From an uncultured Verrucomicrobiae bacterium (GTDB lineage Bacteria > Verrucomicrobiota > Verrucomicrobiia > Chthoniobacterales > UBA10450), in assembly GCA_963815455.1 (NCBI GenBank), contig CAWFGO010000001.1:1440001-1504000 (forward strand): a DNA stretch of 64,000 bases, given 5' to 3'. The first letter of the stretch is position 1, and every line of letters starts with the position of its first letter. Position numbers and translations under genes: made by a program. The notes below the pieces were generated by a model that was not told where the DNA came from, did not search any database, and was given only the letters and a program-made list of their open reading frames with translations. Positions 36,116 through 56,248 of this stretch are shown one piece after another.

Positions 36116-36182
36116 AGAAGGGGATTGCGCTCTGCTCCCGCCACGGCGAGCAGGCAGAACGACACACTGCATTAGCAAGGTA

Positions 36183-36969
36183 ATGCGATCTTCGTTGCTG
36201 GTTCTGCTGGCGACAGTCACATCTCAAACTGCTTTCGCAGTTTCTTTCAAGGAATCGCCCGAGCTGGGAAAGATTTTCAAAGACAACGGCGTCGTCGGGA
36301 CATTCGTCCTGTTCGATGTGGGCGCGGACACAATGTTTGTCTGGAATCGAGACCGGGTCAGGCAGCGTTTTATCCCAGCGTCCACATTCAAGATCGCGAA
36401 CTCGCTCATCGGTCTCGACGCCGGCGCGGTGAAAAATGTCGATGAAGTGCTGCCTTACGGAGGCAAACCGCAATGGATCAAGGCCTGGGGAAAACGACAT
36501 GGGATTGCGCGAAGCGATCAAGATTTCCAACGTCGCGATTTATCAGGAACTGGCCCGCCGCATCGGCCTGGAACGAATGCGCGAAGGCGTAAAGAAGCTC
36601 GGCTACGGCAACATGGAAATCGGCAACGTGGTCGATCGTTTCTGGCTGGATGGGCCGCTAAAAATTTCTGCGATCGAACAAACGGAATTTCTGAATCGGT
36701 TGACCGCCGGGAAGCTGCCGGTCAAGCCGGGCGTTATCGAAGCGGTACGGGAAATCACGCTTCAGGAAAAAACTGCCGACTATGCGCTTCACGCCAAGAC
36801 TGGATGGTGTGCGTCAACCAATCCACAAATTGGCTGGTGGGTTGGCTGGGTGGAACGGGGCGACAAGATTTATCCATTCGCGCTCAACATCGACATGTTG
36901 ACCGACGAAGACGCCCCAAAGCGAATTTCCATCGGCCGGGAGTGTTTGAAGGCGCTGGGGAAACTGTAG
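36183..36969 (+). CDS. class D (OXA-like) beta-lactamase, frameshift ~36490
   Basis: STFK, SNV, YGN, 'FWLDGPLKIS' and KTG motifs; signal peptide. Confidence 0.88.
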
Positions 36970-39899: not shown

Positions 39900-40474
39900 G
39901 ACCCACGGGTAAGAGCAGCCCTGGTCGAATGCGCCTGGCGCATGGTCCGTTTCCAGCCGCAATATCCACCGGTCAAAAAGAGGCTGCCCGTTTTGGCCAA
40001 AGGGGCAAAGGCCACCGGAGGGCAACGCAAAAAAGCGATCGTGGCCGTGGCGCGCCGGCTGGCGATGGATTTGTGGCGAGTGCATACCGGACGGCTCACG
40101 GCGCAACAATTGGGTTTAAATATTAAATAAATGAGTTCGAGGGGAACAGGGATGAGCTAACTCGATTAACTCAAAGAGAACGCTTTGGAACGTGGCGTGT
40201 GTCCGGAGTCTAACCTGGTCCGATCCCCGAAAACGTTCGGGGCTCGCACCGTCGCTTTAGATTGGACCGCGCCCACGTTCCGCTTCAGTTGGACGGCATA
40301 AGTCACATTGCGCTGTCAGCAAAAGCATCGACATGCGCGGATAGGAGTATCAGCCGCTGAACAACTCAGTGCGCACCAGAGGCGGAAGCGTTCCAGACCA
40401 ACTCCAACCTCAAACCCCAACAAAACCATGTAATCGCCATCCCCAAAAACTCACCGTTGACACCCTTCATAGGG
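39900..40474 (+). mobile_element. 5'-truncated IS110/IS1111-type element inserted at the last attC
   Basis: Transposase C-terminus 'PRVRAALVECAWRMVRFQP..KKAIVAVARRLAMDLWR' to 40130; structured non-coding region; right end GTTGACACCCTTCATAGG resembles that of the 49-50 kb IS; abuts GTTAGAC. Confidence 0.85.
40135..40400 (+). ncRNA. putative bridge/seek RNA of the truncated IS
   Basis: Stems GGAACGTGG/CCACGTTCC, GTCC/GGAC, CCCCGAA/TTCGGGG, CTTC..GAAG; loop GTCTAACC complementary to flank; boundaries approximate. Confidence 0.65.
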
Positions 40475-40906
40475 GTTAGACGTTGTGTTGCTCGTGAAAT
40501 CTCGTGCGACATCGGGATGCCTTAACATAAGCGCAAACCAGACTGGGATCGAAGTGGTTCCGAGCGCAAGGCCCAGGGTAGACATTGAAGCAAGCACCCC
40601 GCCCTGCACGTGCACGCCCGACACCCCGAGGAAGAAGATGTCGCTGCAAACGGAGAGCGCGATGCCGACAGCAAGACAAAGACAGAGTCCGATGAGTGCA
40701 AGCCGGGCCCAATTCCGCGCGCGAAAGAGGAAATAACTCAGAGCTGCCAGCAACGCAGAAGCGACGAGAACAAGAACACTGCCAAGCTCGTCAGCCCAAC
40801 CGCGGGACGACCAGATGCCGTAGATGTACAGGTGTGCGCCGACCGCGACAACCGAGCCGCTTCCAACTGACGCCACTGCTCCTCCAATAATCGTTGGCCA
40901 ACGCAT
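40451..40906 (-). CDS. cassette 26: 4-TM membrane protein (3' end reads into IS)
   Basis: Hydrophobic ORF after attC core. Confidence 0.7.
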   Translation of the reverse strand: MRWPTIIGGAVASVGSGSVVAVGAHLYIYGIWSSRGWADELGSVLVLVASALLAALSYFLFRARNWARLALIGLCLCLAVGIALSVCSDIFFLGVSGVHVQGGVLASMSTLGLALGTTSIPVWFALMLRHPDVARDFTSNTTSNPYEGCQR

Positions 40907-40995
40907 TACGCTTTACGTCTAACGAGACAGAGATAAGCCACGGCAGGGTGTCGTGGCAAACACACTGAACGCATTTCGAAATGAAGCCGTTGGCT

Positions 40996-41454
40996 TCATC
41001 GATTTGTTAGATGGTCTGGTCTGAAGACGTGTCGGGTAAGAGAGCCGGTGAGACAAGTAGCACCGCCGACAAGTGCGGCTATGCCACAAAACTCCCAAGC
41101 ACCGTATGACCAAGAGCCATCGCCTGGATACGCTAGGAAAACGCCTGTCATGATGAGAAATCCTGCAGTCGCCCCGCAGGCGGTGCAAATGGGCCAGTGC
41201 CACAAAGAGGATGATGAGGGCACAAAGAGGTAAAGAGGAATCAGAACGAAAAGCCACACGGGAATGATAAAGTATGCCATGAACCAGCTCGTCGCTATCG
41301 TACTGCCGAACACTAAGCCCACATCCAGCGCGTGGCGCTGCCGAATCGCATCGACGAAGTAGGTGGACTCGAGAGCTACGAGCGTCACCACCCAGCCGGC
41401 AAGAACCGCAACAAGCGTTCCAACGAGCTGCTTGAAGATGGAGCGTGCGACCAT
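40996..41454 (-). CDS. cassette 25: membrane protein, identical to cassette 8
   Basis: ATG overlaps GTTAGATG; 4 TM. Confidence 0.75.
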   Translation of the reverse strand: MVARSIFKQLVGTLVAVLAGWVVTLVALESTYFVDAIRQRHALDVGLVFGSTIATSWFMAYFIIPVWLFVLIPLYLFVPSSSSLWHWPICTACGATAGFLIMTGVFLAYPGDGSWSYGAWEFCGIAALVGGATCLTGSLTRHVFRPDHLTNR

Positions 41455-41579
41455 CTAACGAGACCAAGCTCAGCGGCGGCTACCAGGAGCGCGGCTGAAA
41501 ATCTCTGGAACTGTTTTAATCATGACAAAATATGAACGCACAGCGGTCCGCCGTTCGCTCCATCGCATGGTTAGATGAT

Positions 41580-42011
41580 TTAATGATTCTCACCATGAAT
41601 TTCTTTTCCAAGTTTTTCTCCCAACGCACGGCCTTGCGCTGCCGAATCGACGAGCTTCTGATGCGTCTCAGTATCTGTAGAAACCAAATCGTCGCTCGCC
41701 GTAATCCCAAACGAATCGATGACAAGATCCTTCCGCCGATCCTCGAATAACAAAACTGTAGTGTAGCTCGATGTCGGACTCTCGGTCAGCGTAACGGAAT
41801 ATGGAAACTCGGCGGACACATCGAGTGACGAAATCTTTGCGTCTTTGACGGCAACCAAGACGCGCTTGTGTGCTGCAGCTGATATGATGAACCACGCGGG
41901 ATGCCCTTCCATCCGATGGGCCGCTGTCAATTTGAGATCACTGCGCTGATCGCCAGCGAGTGCGAATTGGCCGGTGATGACGAAGAGGAAAACGAGAACG
42001 CGCGCTATCAT
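41580..42011 (-). CDS. cassette 24: secreted hypothetical, identical to cassette 7
   Basis: Signal peptide; fills cassette. Confidence 0.75.
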   Translation of the reverse strand: MIARVLVFLFVITGQFALAGDQRSDLKLTAAHRMEGHPAWFIISAAAHKRVLVAVKDAKISSLDVSAEFPYSVTLTESPTSSYTTVLLFEDRRKDLVIDSFGITASDDLVSTDTETHQKLVDSAAQGRALGEKLGKEIHGENH

Positions 42012-42136
42012 CTAACGAGCACAAGCTCAGCCACCGCTGGCGGGAGCGAGCTTTGCTGCGGATTTTAGTGTTGAAGTCGTCGAAAATCTACTCATCGGAA
42101 CGGCCAGCGGTTGGCTGGAGCGTTTGGTTAGATCGG

Positions 42137-48955: not shown

Positions 48956-49110
48956 AGGGCCTAACGAGAACAAGCTGAGCGACCGCCGCCGAGAGCGAGC
49001 GCGGCTTCAACTGAAACGGTTTTAATCATCTGAAATGTAAACACGCGCCGGGCGGCGGTTAGATGCCATGAAGGGTTGAAAAGCGTGGGCAAAACGGGCA
49101 CACGCGTTGT

Positions 49111-50439
49111 ATGAAAAACAAAACAACAACAACCCTTCATGGCGGAGAGAAGTTTAACAATTCAAGCGCCCCTGGCAATGGGGCAGTGAGGCGGGTGTGG
49201 AAGCTTGGGCTGGACGTGGACCTGCGTTTTATGGTGGTGGCGATCCAGTGTGGGCGGGGAACGATTGGGCCGGCGCGGAAGTATACTCGCGAGCAGTTGC
49301 TCGAGTGGGTGAAGCAAAAAGTGGGTGTAGGCGATGTGGTCTACGCGGTGTGGGAATGCTGCGGATTTGGTTATACGCTGCACGAGCAATTAACTCAAGC
49401 GGGAGCAAAGAGCGTCGGGACGACCCCGATGCGATTAAATTTGGAGCGGCGGCGGAAGAACGACCGGATGGATGCGCGCGAGTTGTGTGTGCGATTGAGC
49501 CGTTACCTGGATGGGCAGAGAGAGGAATTAAGACCAATCCGAATCCCGAGCCGGGGGGAGCAACAACGGCGGGAGCTGGGGCGGCAGCGGGAGTTTTGGA
49601 AACGCCAAGTGCGGCGGCTGGAGAATCACGGGCGAGCGCTGCGGATCGAGCACGAGCATGAGACGCTGGAGGCTGGGTGGGGCGGACCGCGGAAGTGGAA
49701 ACGAATCGGGCCGCAGTGCAGCGAGTTTGTGCGCGGGCAGCTTGAACCGGTCATGGAACAGATCCGAGCGGCCAAAGCGCAATTGGATCGGTTGACCCAG
49801 GAGATTGAAGCGCTGGTGAGGGAAGAAAAAATCCCGACGGGATTGGGTGCGCTAACGGTATCGCTGATCGACGGGGAGGTGTGCGATTGGCAACGCTTCA
49901 AGCATCGCAAAGCCGTGGGCAGTTACACTGGGTGTTGTCCTAGCGAATACAGTTCGGCCGGGATCCAGCGTTTTGGAAGCATCGACCGGCACGGCAACAA
50001 ACATTTGCGCACGCTCCTGGTCGAGGCGGTCTGGCGACTTCTTCGCTGGCAGCCTAACTGGCATGCTCGTCAGAAATATCTGGAGAAATTAAGGCACGGC
50101 GCCTCGCTGAAAAAGAAAATCGCAGTGGCCCTGGCCCGGCAACTGGCCATAGACATCTGGCGCTGGCGAACCGGCCGGGCCAGTGCCGCCGAACTGGGCT
50201 GGAGCCTGTCTAACATTCCAGGTGAAACCCTAACAAACAGATTTAACCCTCAGCTTTTACGAAACGGAACTTCCAAGCAAAGTTTGATTTGGCCGCAGGG
50301 TGGAACGCTGCTCGGCGCTGGAGCTGGTCCTTTGAAACGAAGGGATCATCGCTTAGATGGGGCGCGTTCCGCCCAAAGCGGCTTCCCAAAGTCAGGCACG
50401 ACATCATGGGCTCGCACAACAAAAGCGATGCTCGAATAG
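49111..50439 (+). CDS. IS110-family DEDD transposase/recombinase (homologous part ends ~50210)
   Basis: 'LGLDVD', 'WECCG', 'KNDRMDA', 'GCCPSEYSS', 'GNKHLRTLLVEA', 'VALARQL'. Confidence 0.92.
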   Translation: MKNKTTTTLHGGEKFNNSSAPGNGAVRRVWKLGLDVDLRFMVVAIQCGRGTIGPARKYTREQLLEWVKQKVGVGDVVYAVWECCGFGYTLHEQLTQAGAKSVGTTPMRLNLERRRKNDRMDARELCVRLSRYLDGQREELRPIRIPSRGEQQRRELGRQREFWKRQVRRLENHGRALRIEHEHETLEAGWGGPRKWKRIGPQCSEFVRGQLEPVMEQIRAAKAQLDRLTQEIEALVREEKIPTGLGALTVSLIDGEVCDWQRFKHRKAVGSYTGCCPSEYSSAGIQRFGSIDRHGNKHLRTLLVEAVWRLLRWQPNWHARQKYLEKLRHGASLKKKIAVALARQLAIDIWRWRTGRASAAELGWSLSNIPGETLTNRFNPQLLRNGTSKQSLIWPQGGTLLGAGAGPLKRRDHRLDGARSAQSGFPKSGTTSWARTTKAMLE

Positions 50440-50503
50440 GAGCTGGTGACTCGCCCCGGCGAGACAACACGACAGAGGGAAGCTGCACCCTGCGGATCAA
50501 ACC
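50280..50503 (+). ncRNA. putative bridge/seek RNA
   Basis: Closing stem GTTTGAT..CCGCAGGGTG / CACCCTGCGG.ATCAAAC; GGAACGC/GCGTTCC stem enclosing loop GCGCTGGAGCT; second domain GCTTCCC/GGGAAGC. Confidence 0.72.
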
Positions 50504-50616
50504 ACTAAAGATTGGAAAAACCGGGAAAGGAAAAAACTAAAGAAAAACAAACAATACCCGTTCCACGGTTGACAACCCTCATAGGCGCTCCAGCGCTTGG
50601 TTAGACCTATTCGTGA

Positions 50617-51159: not shown

Positions 51160-51240
51160 AGGTCTAACGAGACAGAGATAAGCCACGGCAGGGTGTCGTG
51201 GCAAACACACTGAACGCATTTCGAAATGGGGCCGTTGGCT

Positions 51241-51699
51241 TCATCGATTTGTTAGATGGTCTGGTCTGAAGACGTGTCGGGTAAGAGAGCCGGTGAGACA
51301 AGTAGCACCGCCGACAAGTGCGGCTATGCCACAAAACTCCCAAGCACCGTATGACCAAGAGCCATCGCCTGGATACGCTAGGAAAACGCCTGTCATGATG
51401 AGAAATCCTGCAGTCGCCCCGCAGGCGGTGCAAATGGGCCAGTGCCACAAAGAGGATGATGAGGGCACAAAGAGGTAAAGAGGAATCAGAACGAAAAGCC
51501 ACACGGGAATGATAAAGTATGCCATGAACCAGCTCGTCGCTATCGTACTGCCGAACACTAAGCCCACATCCAGCGCGTGGCGCTGCCGAATCGCATCGAC
51601 GAAGTAGGTGGACTCGAGAGCTACGAGCGTCACCACCCAGCCGGCAAGAACCGCAACAAGCGTTCCAACGAGCTGCTTGAAGATGGAGCGTGCGACCAT
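51241..51699 (-). CDS. cassette 8: membrane protein
   Basis: Identical protein to 40996..41454. Confidence 0.75.
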   Translation of the reverse strand: MVARSIFKQLVGTLVAVLAGWVVTLVALESTYFVDAIRQRHALDVGLVFGSTIATSWFMAYFIIPVWLFVLIPLYLFVPSSSSLWHWPICTACGATAGFLIMTGVFLAYPGDGSWSYGAWEFCGIAALVGGATCLTGSLTRHVFRPDHLTNR

Positions 51700-51824
51700 C
51701 TAACGAGACCAAGCTCAGCGGCGGCTACCAGGAGCGCGGCTGAAAATCTCTGGAACTGTTTTAATCATGACAAAATGTGAACGCACAGCGGTCCGCCGTT
51801 CGCTCCATCGCATGGTTAGATGAT

Positions 51825-52256
51825 TTAATGATTCTCACCATGAATTTCTTTTCCAAGTTTTTCTCCCAACGCACGGCCTTGCGCTGCCGAATCGACGAGC
51901 TTCTGATGCGTCTCAGTATCTGTAGAAACCAAATCGTCGCTCGCCGTAATCCCAAACGAATCGATGACAAGATCCTTCCGCCGATCCTCGAATAACAAAA
52001 CTGTAGTGTAGCTCGATGTCGGACTCTCGGTCAGCGTAACGGAATATGGAAACTCGGCGGACACATCGAGTGACGAAATCTTTGCGTCTTTGACGGCAAC
52101 CAAGACGCGCTTGTGTGCTGCAGCTGATATGATGAACCACGCGGGATGCCCTTCCATCCGATGGGCCGCTGTCAATTTGAGATCACTGCGCTGATCGCCA
52201 GCGAGTGCGAATTGGCCGGTGATGACGAAGAGGAAAACGAGAACGCGCGCTATCAT
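51825..52256 (-). CDS. cassette 7: secreted hypothetical protein
   Basis: Identical protein to 41580..42011. Confidence 0.75.
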   Translation of the reverse strand: MIARVLVFLFVITGQFALAGDQRSDLKLTAAHRMEGHPAWFIISAAAHKRVLVAVKDAKISSLDVSAEFPYSVTLTESPTSSYTTVLLFEDRRKDLVIDSFGITASDDLVSTDTETHQKLVDSAAQGRALGEKLGKEIHGENH

Positions 52257-52420
52257 CTAACGAGAAAGAGGTGAGCGATGGCGGCTGAGAGGGCGCGTGG
52301 CTTGCATGAGAAGGAGTCTAGCTACTCAAAGCGTGGGACACAAGGCCAGCCGCCATTCGCTCCACCGACTGGTTAGATGGTTCGCGTGGCATTACGAAGG
52401 ATAATGATAACGGACTCTCA

Positions 52421-55179: not shown

Positions 55180-55236
55180 GCCTAACGAGAATTAGACGAA
55201 GGTTCGTAATTAAAGGCGAACATTTTTTCGTCTAAC
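55180..55236 (-). other. attI: attI site at the 3' end of intI
   Basis: Minus strand GTTAGACGAAAAAATGTTCGCCTTTAATTACGAACCTTCGTCTAATTCTC-GTTAGGC; a core site with no attC left half, preceding cassette 1. Confidence 0.75.
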
Positions 55237-56248
55237 TAGGTTGAGGGTTCGAAGGGGGGCGGCAGTCGACAGGGCTGCGTACCCCCAGGCCGGGTTTATC
55301 CAATACATGAGTGTAAATCATTGTGGTTGAGACATCTTTGTGTCCAAGCAGTGCCTGAACGGTGCGAATATCGGAGCCGGCCTGGAGCAAATGGGTGGCA
55401 AAACTGTGTCGAAAGGTATGACAACTGGCCGGTTTGGCAATCCCGGCCCGTTGAATCGCCAGTTTTACCGCGTTTTGGAGGTTTTTTTCCTGAACGTGAT
55501 GCCTGCGAATCTCTCCCGAGCGCGGGTCGAGCGAGAGCTTGGCGGCCGGGAACACATATTGCCACGCCCAAGAGCGATCGGCGTTGCGATATTTGCGGGC
55601 CAAGGCGAAAGGCAGGTAGACTCTGCCCCGGCCTGCGGCGAGGTCCTGCCGGTGCAGCGCTCGCACCCGGCCAAGGTGCAGGTGCAATTCTTCGCGTCCT
55701 GCTTCCGGCAGAAGGGTAACTCGATCGCGCTGGCCTTTCCCGTCGCGAACAATAATCCGGTTGAGCCCCAAATCCACATCCTTGACGCGCAAGCGCACGC
55801 ACTCCATCAGACGCAGTCCGCTGCCGTAGAGTAAAAGGGCCATGAGATGGTATTCGGCTCTGAGTTGCGCGAGCACTGCGTGCGCCTCCTCCGGGGTGAA
55901 GACGACTGGAATTTTGGCTGGCCGTTTGACCCGCTCCGCATCGATGAAGTCGAGTTTTGTATTCAGTACCTCCTGATAAAGGAACAACAGAGCGGACAGA
56001 GCCTGGTTCTGAGTGGACGCAGCCACATGTTTGTTTACGGCCAGATGAGTGAGGAAACGGGTAATCTCCTCTTCGCCCATTTCGTTGGGGTGGCGTTTGC
56101 GATGAAAGAGGATGTAACGCCGGATCCAATCTAGGTAGGCCTGCTCGGTGCGGATGCTGTAGTGTTTTACTCGCAATTGCCAGCGAACGCGGTCGAGCAA
56201 CTTGGGCGACGAAGCGACGGTGGCGGTGGAGGGCGGCACGGTCGCCAT
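55232..56248 (-). CDS. intI: integron integrase
   Basis: '[10 protein letters not shown]', '[10 protein letters not shown]', R-K-HxxR-H-Y residues, integron-specific insertion '[19 protein letters not shown]'. Confidence 0.97.

What the first reader, a model, noticed from the sequence alone, without database searches (positions are those of the whole stretch)
39900..40481. Second IS1111-like remnant with the same RNA scaffold but a guide matching a different attC position
Seen: a divergent, 5'-deleted IS at the array end shares scaffold landmarks with the complete element (GGAACG..GG-[guide]-TGGTCC..TCGCT(T)TAGAT..CGTTCC; right end GTTGACA..TCATAGG). Its guide slot reads GTCTAACC (40208-40215), the reverse complement of its own flank GGTTAGAC (40474-40481), which is the R'' box rather than the L'' box. 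Inference: this is natural guide-target covariation between two elements in one integron, dividing the attC into separate niches. The deletion of its left part probably also removed the distal array.
Basis: partly seen in the sequence, partly recalled or inferred. Interest (0 to 1): 0.78.

Follow-up and report, generated by a model that had tools for sequence, protein, structure and literature searches.

The report
Two jumping genes share integron sites
This is the broken right-hand part of an RNA-guided jumping gene whose intact relatives always land at one spot in the gene-swapping sites of integrons, 13 bases away from where a sister element lands, and each element's guide RNA matches its own spot.

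Summary
Observation confirmed. 39901-40473 is the right 38% of an IS110-family element (type B) with a downstream guide RNA. GTCTAACC (40208-40215) lies in an 11-nt loop strand that aligns without gaps to the guide of the complete element (type A, 49061-50585). This genome has no full type B copy, but relatives do: 94 of 98 type B right ends abut GGTTAG (within one mismatch), one base before attC R''. None of 78 type A/C ends does; these cut before L'', 13 bp away. Guide and flank covary base by base within each type. Three contigs carry both types in one attC. Both cuts differ from the published ISKpn4 position. Corrections: TCGCT(T)TAGAT is a second guide, not scaffold; the two guides are one base out of register; the A/B switch is one deep split (~40% protein identity). 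Adaptive niche division is unsupported (59 attC sites are empty; C shares A's site; a distant IS110 shares B's). Loss of a distal array cannot be told. attC targeting by guide RNA and natural retargeting are published, and the scan noted attC-targeting IS110s in other genomes. New variant of a known kind; no bench evidence.

The parts
39901..40473 (+). Type B IS110-family remnant, right 573 bp of a ~1,496 bp element
   Evidence: 86% nt identity to the full copy in L002 from 39901 on; full length 1,496
39903..40130 (+). 3' fragment of the type B transposase gene (last ~75 codons and stop)
   Evidence: translation; 91% aa identity to L002 residues 291-368
40187..40281 (+). Predicted target-binding hairpin of the guide (seek/bridge) RNA: outer stem, internal loop, inner hairpin
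   Evidence: fold z-score -5.7; consensus structure with compensatory changes; transcription not shown
40205..40215 (+). 5' loop strand (11 nt); 40208-40215 is the right-target guide, complementary to 40474-40481
   Evidence: covariation
40252..40263 (+). 3' loop strand (12 nt): weak left-target guide followed by AGAT, the first four bases of the element's own left end
40341..40347 (+). ATAGGAG, identical to the predicted circle junction (right end + first 2 bases of left end); candidate donor guide
   Evidence: exact junction 7-mer in the non-coding end of 84 of 90 B, 53 of 53 A, 5 of 11 C elements; role inferred
40456..40473 (+). Right end: TTGACA -35-like box, imperfect subterminal repeat, 3-nt extension AGG
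40474..40481 (-). Surviving end of the interrupted attC: R'' box plus one base
   Evidence: same motif in intact attC sites
40451..40906 (-). Last cassette ORF (151 aa, no Pfam hit); reads through R'' and takes its stop codon from the element's end
49061..50585 (+). Complete type A element in an attC, cut one base before the L'' box (bottom strand)
   Evidence: attC halves 48959-49060 and 50586-50606
49111..50439 (+). Type A transposase ORF; this copy runs on through the RNA region because of a one-base difference near codon 368
   Evidence: PF02371, NF033542; frame change against other copies
50302..50370 (+). Type A target-binding hairpin; guide 50316-50324, 3' loop strand 50349-50359
55232..56248 (-). 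Integron integrase; the cassette array (24 intact attC sites found) runs on the minus strand from ~55200 to 40482
   Evidence: TIGR02249; attC scan

Best explanation
The remnant is a dead copy of type B, one lineage in a clade of RNA-guided IS110-family elements of Verrucomicrobiota that live in integron attC sites. The element excises as a circle (inferred from the family) and the junction supplies a promoter (inferred; TTGACA sits 11 bp from the right end). The RNA from the right end binds the DEDD transposase (inferred). The 5' strand of its internal loop pairs with the bases right of the cut and the 3' strand with the bases left of it (supported by covariation). Type B reads GGTTAGRY and inserts one base before R'' on the bottom strand. 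Types A and C read the L'' box and insert 13 bp further into the site. One ancient change of guide separates the two positions. Smaller guide changes since then track attC variants, and two type B branches have left attC for other targets. The two positions do not exclude each other.
For: Shown in sequence: 4 complete type B copies and 1 right-truncated copy in G037, all opening at the same attC position. 94 of 98 B right flanks are within one mismatch of GGTTAG (one of these, L180, is a retargeted element) and 83 of 98 are exactly GGTTAGRY; 0 of 78 A/C flanks are. Guide against own flank: B 76 of 89 match at 7-8 of 8, A 59 of 67; across types 3.6 of 8. In a blind scan of the whole non-coding end the best match fell in a slot-like position for 80 of 96 B and 51 of 68 A elements. 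At flank base +7 in attC-targeting B, guide and flank agree in 71 of 84 insertions (A/A 36, G/G 35). Permutation over 32 RNA clusters: 0.76 against 0.42, reached in 0 of 2000. Host control: in G264 all 6 B insertions (guide reads A) sit in GTTAGA sites, while empty sites are 13 A, 24 G, 1 C (hypergeometric 0.004). Type A left guide matches flank bases -1 to -5 in 56, 59, 51, 50, 44 of 62. Retargeted B elements: L206's guide matches a non-attC hairpin flank 8 of 8; L180, L254 and L258 share a third guide. Two elements in one attC, 13 bp apart: L230 and L242 (A+B), L194 (C+B). Tree: all 41 L''-site proteins lie on one side of a branch (SH-aLRT 99); 3 changes in all, the minimum.
Against: No experiment: no RNA, circle or transposition was observed. 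The guide is not strict: 13 of 84 B insertions disagree at +7, and one G163 guide sits at three flank variants. The B left guide is weak: only base -1 agrees well (92 of 95); -2 agrees in 60 and -3 in 41 of 95. In the single-sequence fold the remnant's guide pairs with the opposite loop strand. The two guides are one base out of register relative to the cut, which is unexplained. Clusters are related, so the permutation figures overstate. Copies were de-duplicated by a sequence key, and near-identical insertions from different samples may remain. The three double-occupied sites come from metagenome contigs, and two were fetched because of their B gene. The tree is a quick search with a long-branch warning for type C, and it has no usable root.
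Confidence: 0.88

Rival explanations
1. Adaptive niche division: competition between resident elements for attC sites drove the guides apart.
For: A, B and C coexist in one genome. A/C and B positions can both be filled in one site. An IS1182 element sits between them in 4 of 76 A/C sites.
Against: 59 of the 65 attC sites found in this genome are empty. A and C share one position. Type D shares B's position. The switch happened once.
Confidence: 0.15
2. The protein, or the attC hairpin shape, chooses the site; the RNA match is a relic or a structural pairing inside the RNA.
For: A and B proteins are only ~40% identical, so protein and guide change together at the deep split. The remnant's guide can pair with its own TTAGAT.
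Against: The guide covaries with the flank inside each clade while the opposite AGAT stays fixed. 13 of 82 B insertions at GGTTAG have no L''-like left flank. Retargeted B members change guide and target together. Guide dependence was shown for other members of the family (PMC11187229, text read).
Confidence: 0.08
3. The deletion that removed the element's left part also removed further cassettes.
For: The left 62% of the element and the L''-L'-R' part of its attC are missing, so the deletion crossed the attC. Two other B right-end scraps in this genome show the same one-sided loss.
Against: Nothing shows that cassettes ever lay beyond. No type B left part was found elsewhere in the assembly (90% complete). 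The 117 bp next to the break match nothing else of length. The one genome of the same genus has tdh after the PRTase gene and no integrase hit. The DNA before tdh in this genome is cdsA/dxr-like core genes (names read from the translations).
Confidence: 0.4

Closest known systems
IS1111-attC group (ISKpn4, ISPst6, ISPa25, ISPa21) and their seekRNAs (PMC11187229)
   Same: Inserts in attC, opposite to the cassettes, near the R''/L'' end. Guide RNA downstream of tnp; top-strand match 5' of bottom-strand match, separated by a hairpin. 7 (or 6) and 3 nt terminal extensions; no target duplication.
   Different: Cut position: ISKpn4, ISPst6 and ISPa25 cut 6 nt before GTTAG, inside L'' (PMC13604230 Table 1, a review's rendering); A/C cut 14 nt and B 1 nt before it. 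The published members share one position. The transposase carries YEACGFG and YTGLCPGE motifs, unlike the ISKpn4/ISPa25 sequences seen in the supplement. Subterminal repeats are imperfect.
ISSso6 / ISCARN28 / ISEc45 branch of the IS110 family
   Same: The best named plasmid match is ISSso6 (30% over 85% of the protein) against 26% over 62% for IS5075/IS4321. Similar GLD-H, YEA-G-G and KTD-RDA motifs by eye.
   Different: No plasmid protein exceeds ~35% identity among the best matches. attC targeting was not found reported for that branch in the searches run.
Natural retargeting pairs ISEc11/ISXne4 and ISEc21/ISMch6 (PMC11187229)
   Same: Scaffold kept, guide and target changed together.
   Different: Those pairs are 72-84% identical and move to unrelated targets. 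Here the move is 13 bp along the same DNA site, between proteins ~40% identical, with a one-base register shift.
Group IIC-attC introns (PMC3001079, PMC7923331; passages)
   Same: RNA-guided invaders of the attC bottom strand at R''.
   Different: Retroelements; they cut at TTGT/T inside R'', 3 nt from the type B cut.

Membership tests
IS110 family (broad) | DEDD RuvC domain plus C-terminal PF02371 domain with SG motif | tested here: met
   Full type B: NF033542 188.9 bits (cut-off 140), PF01548 and PF02371 above cut-off. D, E, D, D and SSG columns seen in alignment A2. The remnant itself keeps only the last ~75 codons.
IS110 family (broad) | Non-coding end encodes a structured RNA with matches to both target strands | tested here: met
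   Computational only: structure and matches. The left match is weak in type B.
IS110 family (broad) | RNA is made, binds the transposase and is needed for movement; circular intermediate | not testable with these tools
   Needs bench work.
IS1111 group (architecture) | Long non-coding region downstream of tnp; top-strand match 5' of bottom-strand match | tested here: met
IS1111 group (architecture) | Terminal extensions of 7 (or 6) nt left and 3 nt right; no target duplication | tested here: met
   7/3 in A and B, 6/3 in C. Rebuilt empty sites put R'' at +1 in 79 of 87 B and at +14 in 24 of 51 A (30 of 51 at +13 to +15). The end patterns were set from the first copies, so the lengths are partly assumed.
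IS1111 group (architecture) | Subterminal inverted repeats of 11-13 bp, perfect or nearly so | tested here: inconclusive
   Ungapped matches of 11: A mostly 6-7, B mostly 7-9, C 5. Type A reaches 10 of 11 with one gap (read).
IS1111-attC group | Insertion in attC, antisense to the cassettes | tested here: met
IS1111-attC group | The shared insertion point (6 nt before GTTAG) | tested here: not met
   1 nt for B, 14 nt for A/C against PMC13604230 Table 1
IS1111-attC group | Transposase inside the monophyletic IS1111-attC subset | tested here: inconclusive
   No ISKpn4-group protein was in the tree. Motifs differ by eye and the canonical IS1111 member IS5075 is only 26% identical, which points against membership.

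The most novel reading that the evidence does not exclude
An undescribed IS110 clade reached attC independently of the IS1111-attC group and moved its cut 13 bp along the site. It recombines without an identical core (element AG against target NG), and one extra base in the 3' loop strand (12 nt in 103 of 108 B, 11 nt in 75 of 76 A) sets where the cut falls relative to the guide. The R''-L'' end of attC would then be a shared habitat with at least five cut positions used by unrelated elements.
Probability: 0.3. Interest if true: 0.72.

Novelty: new variant of a known kind. Interest (0 to 1): 0.52.

Why it matters
It gives a natural experiment on how an RNA-guided recombinase is retargeted within one DNA site: two positions 13 bp apart, dozens of single-base guide variants with matching flanks, and a one-base register shift tied to loop length. 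That bears on design rules for seek/bridge RNAs, including whether donor and target cores must be identical. It also shows that attC sites in soil Verrucomicrobiota are invaded by several unrelated elements, which should freeze cassettes in place (inference). The principle itself, guide-RNA targeting of attC with natural retargeting, is already published.

Tried and rejected
Rfam: no match in the window. A two-sequence DNA alignment misplaced the guides. The query was in the wrong reading frame; it still found relatives, but its identity figures are not protein identities and are not used. My first slot finder missed most B guides and the second mis-called C guides, so type C match counts are not used; C guides are read. 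The outgroup (type D) was too distant to root the tree (branch length 10), so which position is older is open. Synteny search for the lost array led nowhere. PDB: only weak matches to IS621 and ISCro4. Tetu and Holmes 2008 is not held and Post and Hall 2009 was not seen, so they may describe more than one attC position. Target logos in the figures of PMC11187229 could not be seen, nor its supplementary file 5. PMC5034289, PMC11616780 and PMC12288879 (passages) gave no usable ISKpn4 locus. An idea that occupied attC sites always lie at array ends was dropped: the C1:1,708-1,718 kb array continues past its elements. Look-ups by place and by sequence in earlier findings were empty.

Full report
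1. Setting. The window holds an integron: integrase at 55232-56248 (minus strand; TIGR02249) and cassettes running down to 40482, with 24 intact attC sites found by a pattern scan. A complete IS110-family element (type A, 49061-50585) splits one attC. The finding is a second element (type B) at the far end of the array. Relatives with names are mostly Verrucomicrobiota (68 of 78 record titles, counted by hand).

2. Observation. All landmarks are at the stated places. The remnant is the right 573 bp of a 1,496 bp element: 86% nt identity to the full copy in L002, starting at 39901, and 91% aa identity over the last 78 residues. This genome holds five type A copies, one type C element and three type B right-end pieces, but no full type B (the assembly is 90% complete). 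The four type A copies with a readable right end are followed by N-GCTCCA; all three B ends are followed by GGTTAGRC.

3. Relatives. I collected loci from 300 genomes of the family (60 of the listed places were fetched as extra regions or returned as loci in part, not all), and the best 78 of 323 and 80 of 506 matches in two collections. This gave 275 transposase hits, 230 after de-duplication and 229 after dropping L058. G037 has four complete type B copies and one cut short in the RNA, all starting at the same attC position. Of 98 B elements with a right flank, 94 are within one mismatch of GGTTAG and 83 are exactly GGTTAGRY; 0 of 78 A/C elements are. In rebuilt empty sites R'' starts 1 nt after the cut in 79 of 87 B, and 14 nt after it in 24 of 51 A and 9 of 10 C; 21 of 51 A sites gave no R'' match, some because another element lies there. 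So both types cut one base 5' of an integrase box on the bottom strand, B before R'' and A/C before L'', 13 bp apart.

4. The RNA. An alignment of 53 hairpins (the two window elements and 51 cluster representatives; type C and three long or mis-called B rows left out) has no gaps across the 11-nt guide strand. The consensus fold is an outer stem, an internal loop and an inner hairpin; 10 of 13 pairs have compensatory changes, 91% of cells pair against 32-46% for slid controls. The guide strand is unpaired. Guides match their own flank at 7-8 of 8 in 76 of 89 B and 59 of 67 A elements, and the other type's flank at 3.6 of 8. Within B, flank base +7 follows the guide in 71 of 84 attC insertions. 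Over 32 RNA clusters, +7 and +8 beat all 2000 permutations; over 23 A clusters +5 does, and +8 and +9 are reached by 2 of 2000. Kin are not independent, so these numbers overstate. As a host control, all 6 B insertions in G264 are in GTTAGA sites although 24 of 38 empty sites read GTTAGG. Against: 13 of 84 disagree at +7, and position +8 tolerates C/T.

5. Corrections. TCGCT(T)TAGAT is not scaffold. Its first part is the left-target guide, clear in A (bases -1 to -5 agree in 44-59 of 62) and weak in B (only -1: 92 of 95). AGAT equals the first four bases of the element's left end. The order, top-strand match first, is the IS1111 order (PMC11187229; parts 1, 2, 3 and 5 of 9 read, plus passages and supplement file 1 part 2). 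The last guide base pairs with flank base +1 in B but +2 in A. The 3' loop strand is 12 nt in 103 of 108 B and 11 nt in 75 of 76 A; a link between the two is inference. Further downstream, ATAGGAG equals the predicted circle junction in 142 of 154 elements with both ends, with one case where end and motif changed together. It may be a donor guide, which would make this a two-loop bridge-type RNA (PMC11208160, passages); this is inference.

6. History. In a quick tree of 90 proteins, the 41 L''-site proteins lie on one side of a branch (SH-aLRT 99), and four target classes need three changes, the minimum. A and B average 40% identity. The tree warns of long branches for type C and has no root. 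So the A/B contrast is one old event. The other two changes are B members that left attC: L206, whose guide matches a hairpin flank 8 of 8, and L180/L254/L258, with weaker matches.

7. Niches. Three contigs hold two elements in one attC with exactly 13 bases between them: L230 and L242 (A then B) and L194 (C then B); that is 3 of 76 A/C elements with enough flank. The positions are thus separate and compatible. Competition as the cause is not supported: 59 of 65 sites found here are empty, A and C share a position, and type D shares B's. 13 of 82 B insertions at GGTTAG lack an L''-like left flank, which suggests sequence rather than hairpin shape is read.

8. Distal array. The deletion took the element's left part and the rest of the attC. 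Whether cassettes lay beyond cannot be told: no left part turned up elsewhere, the adjacent 117 bp has no informative match, and the nearest genomes have different neighbours.

9. Known work. ISKpn4, ISPst6 and ISPa25 target attC with seekRNAs and share one position; natural retargeting is described for ISEc11/ISXne4 (PMC11187229). A review table puts their cut 6 nt before GTTAG (PMC13604230, passages with Table 1). Group IIC-attC introns cut inside R'' (PMC7923331, PMC3001079, passages). The present proteins are nearer ISSso6 (30%) than IS5075 (26%) and differ from ISKpn4 in motifs by eye; no ISKpn4-group protein was in my tree, so independent origin is likely but not shown. Eight literature searches (listings and abstract starts seen) showed no report of this clade or of two IS positions in one attC. 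The two founding papers of 2008 and 2009 were not seen and most subscription journals are not in the library. Five earlier notes of this scan describe attC-targeting IS110/IS1111 elements in other genomes, one at R'' with a CT core; they are unchecked and were not used as support. Box names (R'', L'', L', R') follow PMC7923331; 'REP-like', cdsA, dxr and tdh are my readings from recall.

10. Verdict. The observation and its central reading hold and now rest on about 170 elements with guide and flank. The niche and lost-array claims do not. It works like an IS1111-attC element but is not a member by cut position, and probably not by descent. New variant of a known kind; interest 0.52.

Noticed in passing
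G000:C1:1708906-1710604 (L032:14-1054 holds part of the gene): Type D: a distant IS110 (422 aa, long non-coding end upstream of the gene, CT repeated at both ends) sits in an attC at the same R''-adjacent position as type B. Right ends of relatives abut GGTTAG in L193 and L251. Only 7-of-8 guide-like matches were found.
   Followed up: partly
G000:C1:1713594-1715195 (L032:4147-5277): Type C: third member of the clade, ~38% identical to A, same L'' position, 13-nt guide strand, 6-nt left extension.
   Followed up: yes
L043, L148, L203, L209: An IS1182-family element begins 11 bases after the type A right end, inside the same attC, in 4 of 76 A/C sites; 2 of the 4 proteins were scanned, one above and one below the cut-off.
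   Followed up: partly
G000:C1:1256371-1256514 and C1:196825-196852: Two more type B right-end scraps (~166 and ~32 bp), each followed by R'' and a single cassette-like ORF away from any array.
   Followed up: partly
L206; L180, L254, L258: Type B relatives with changed guides inserted beside non-attC hairpins (REP-like).
   Followed up: partly
window 40917-42016 and 51162-52261: Two adjacent cassettes are duplicated in the array, 1097 of 1100 bases identical.
   Followed up: no
G000 C1 ~1,495 kb and ~1,718 kb, C2 ~708 kb, C3 ~785 kb: Four integron integrase loci; the C2 and C3 arrays end in the same genes and may be strain variants assembled twice.
   Followed up: no
window 36180-36969: ORF resembling a class D beta-lactamase/penicillin-binding fold, apparently split over two frames (read by eye; not scanned).
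   Followed up: no
window 50200-50439: This type A copy has one extra base near codon 368, so its ORF runs through the RNA region; may be a sequencing error.
   Followed up: no
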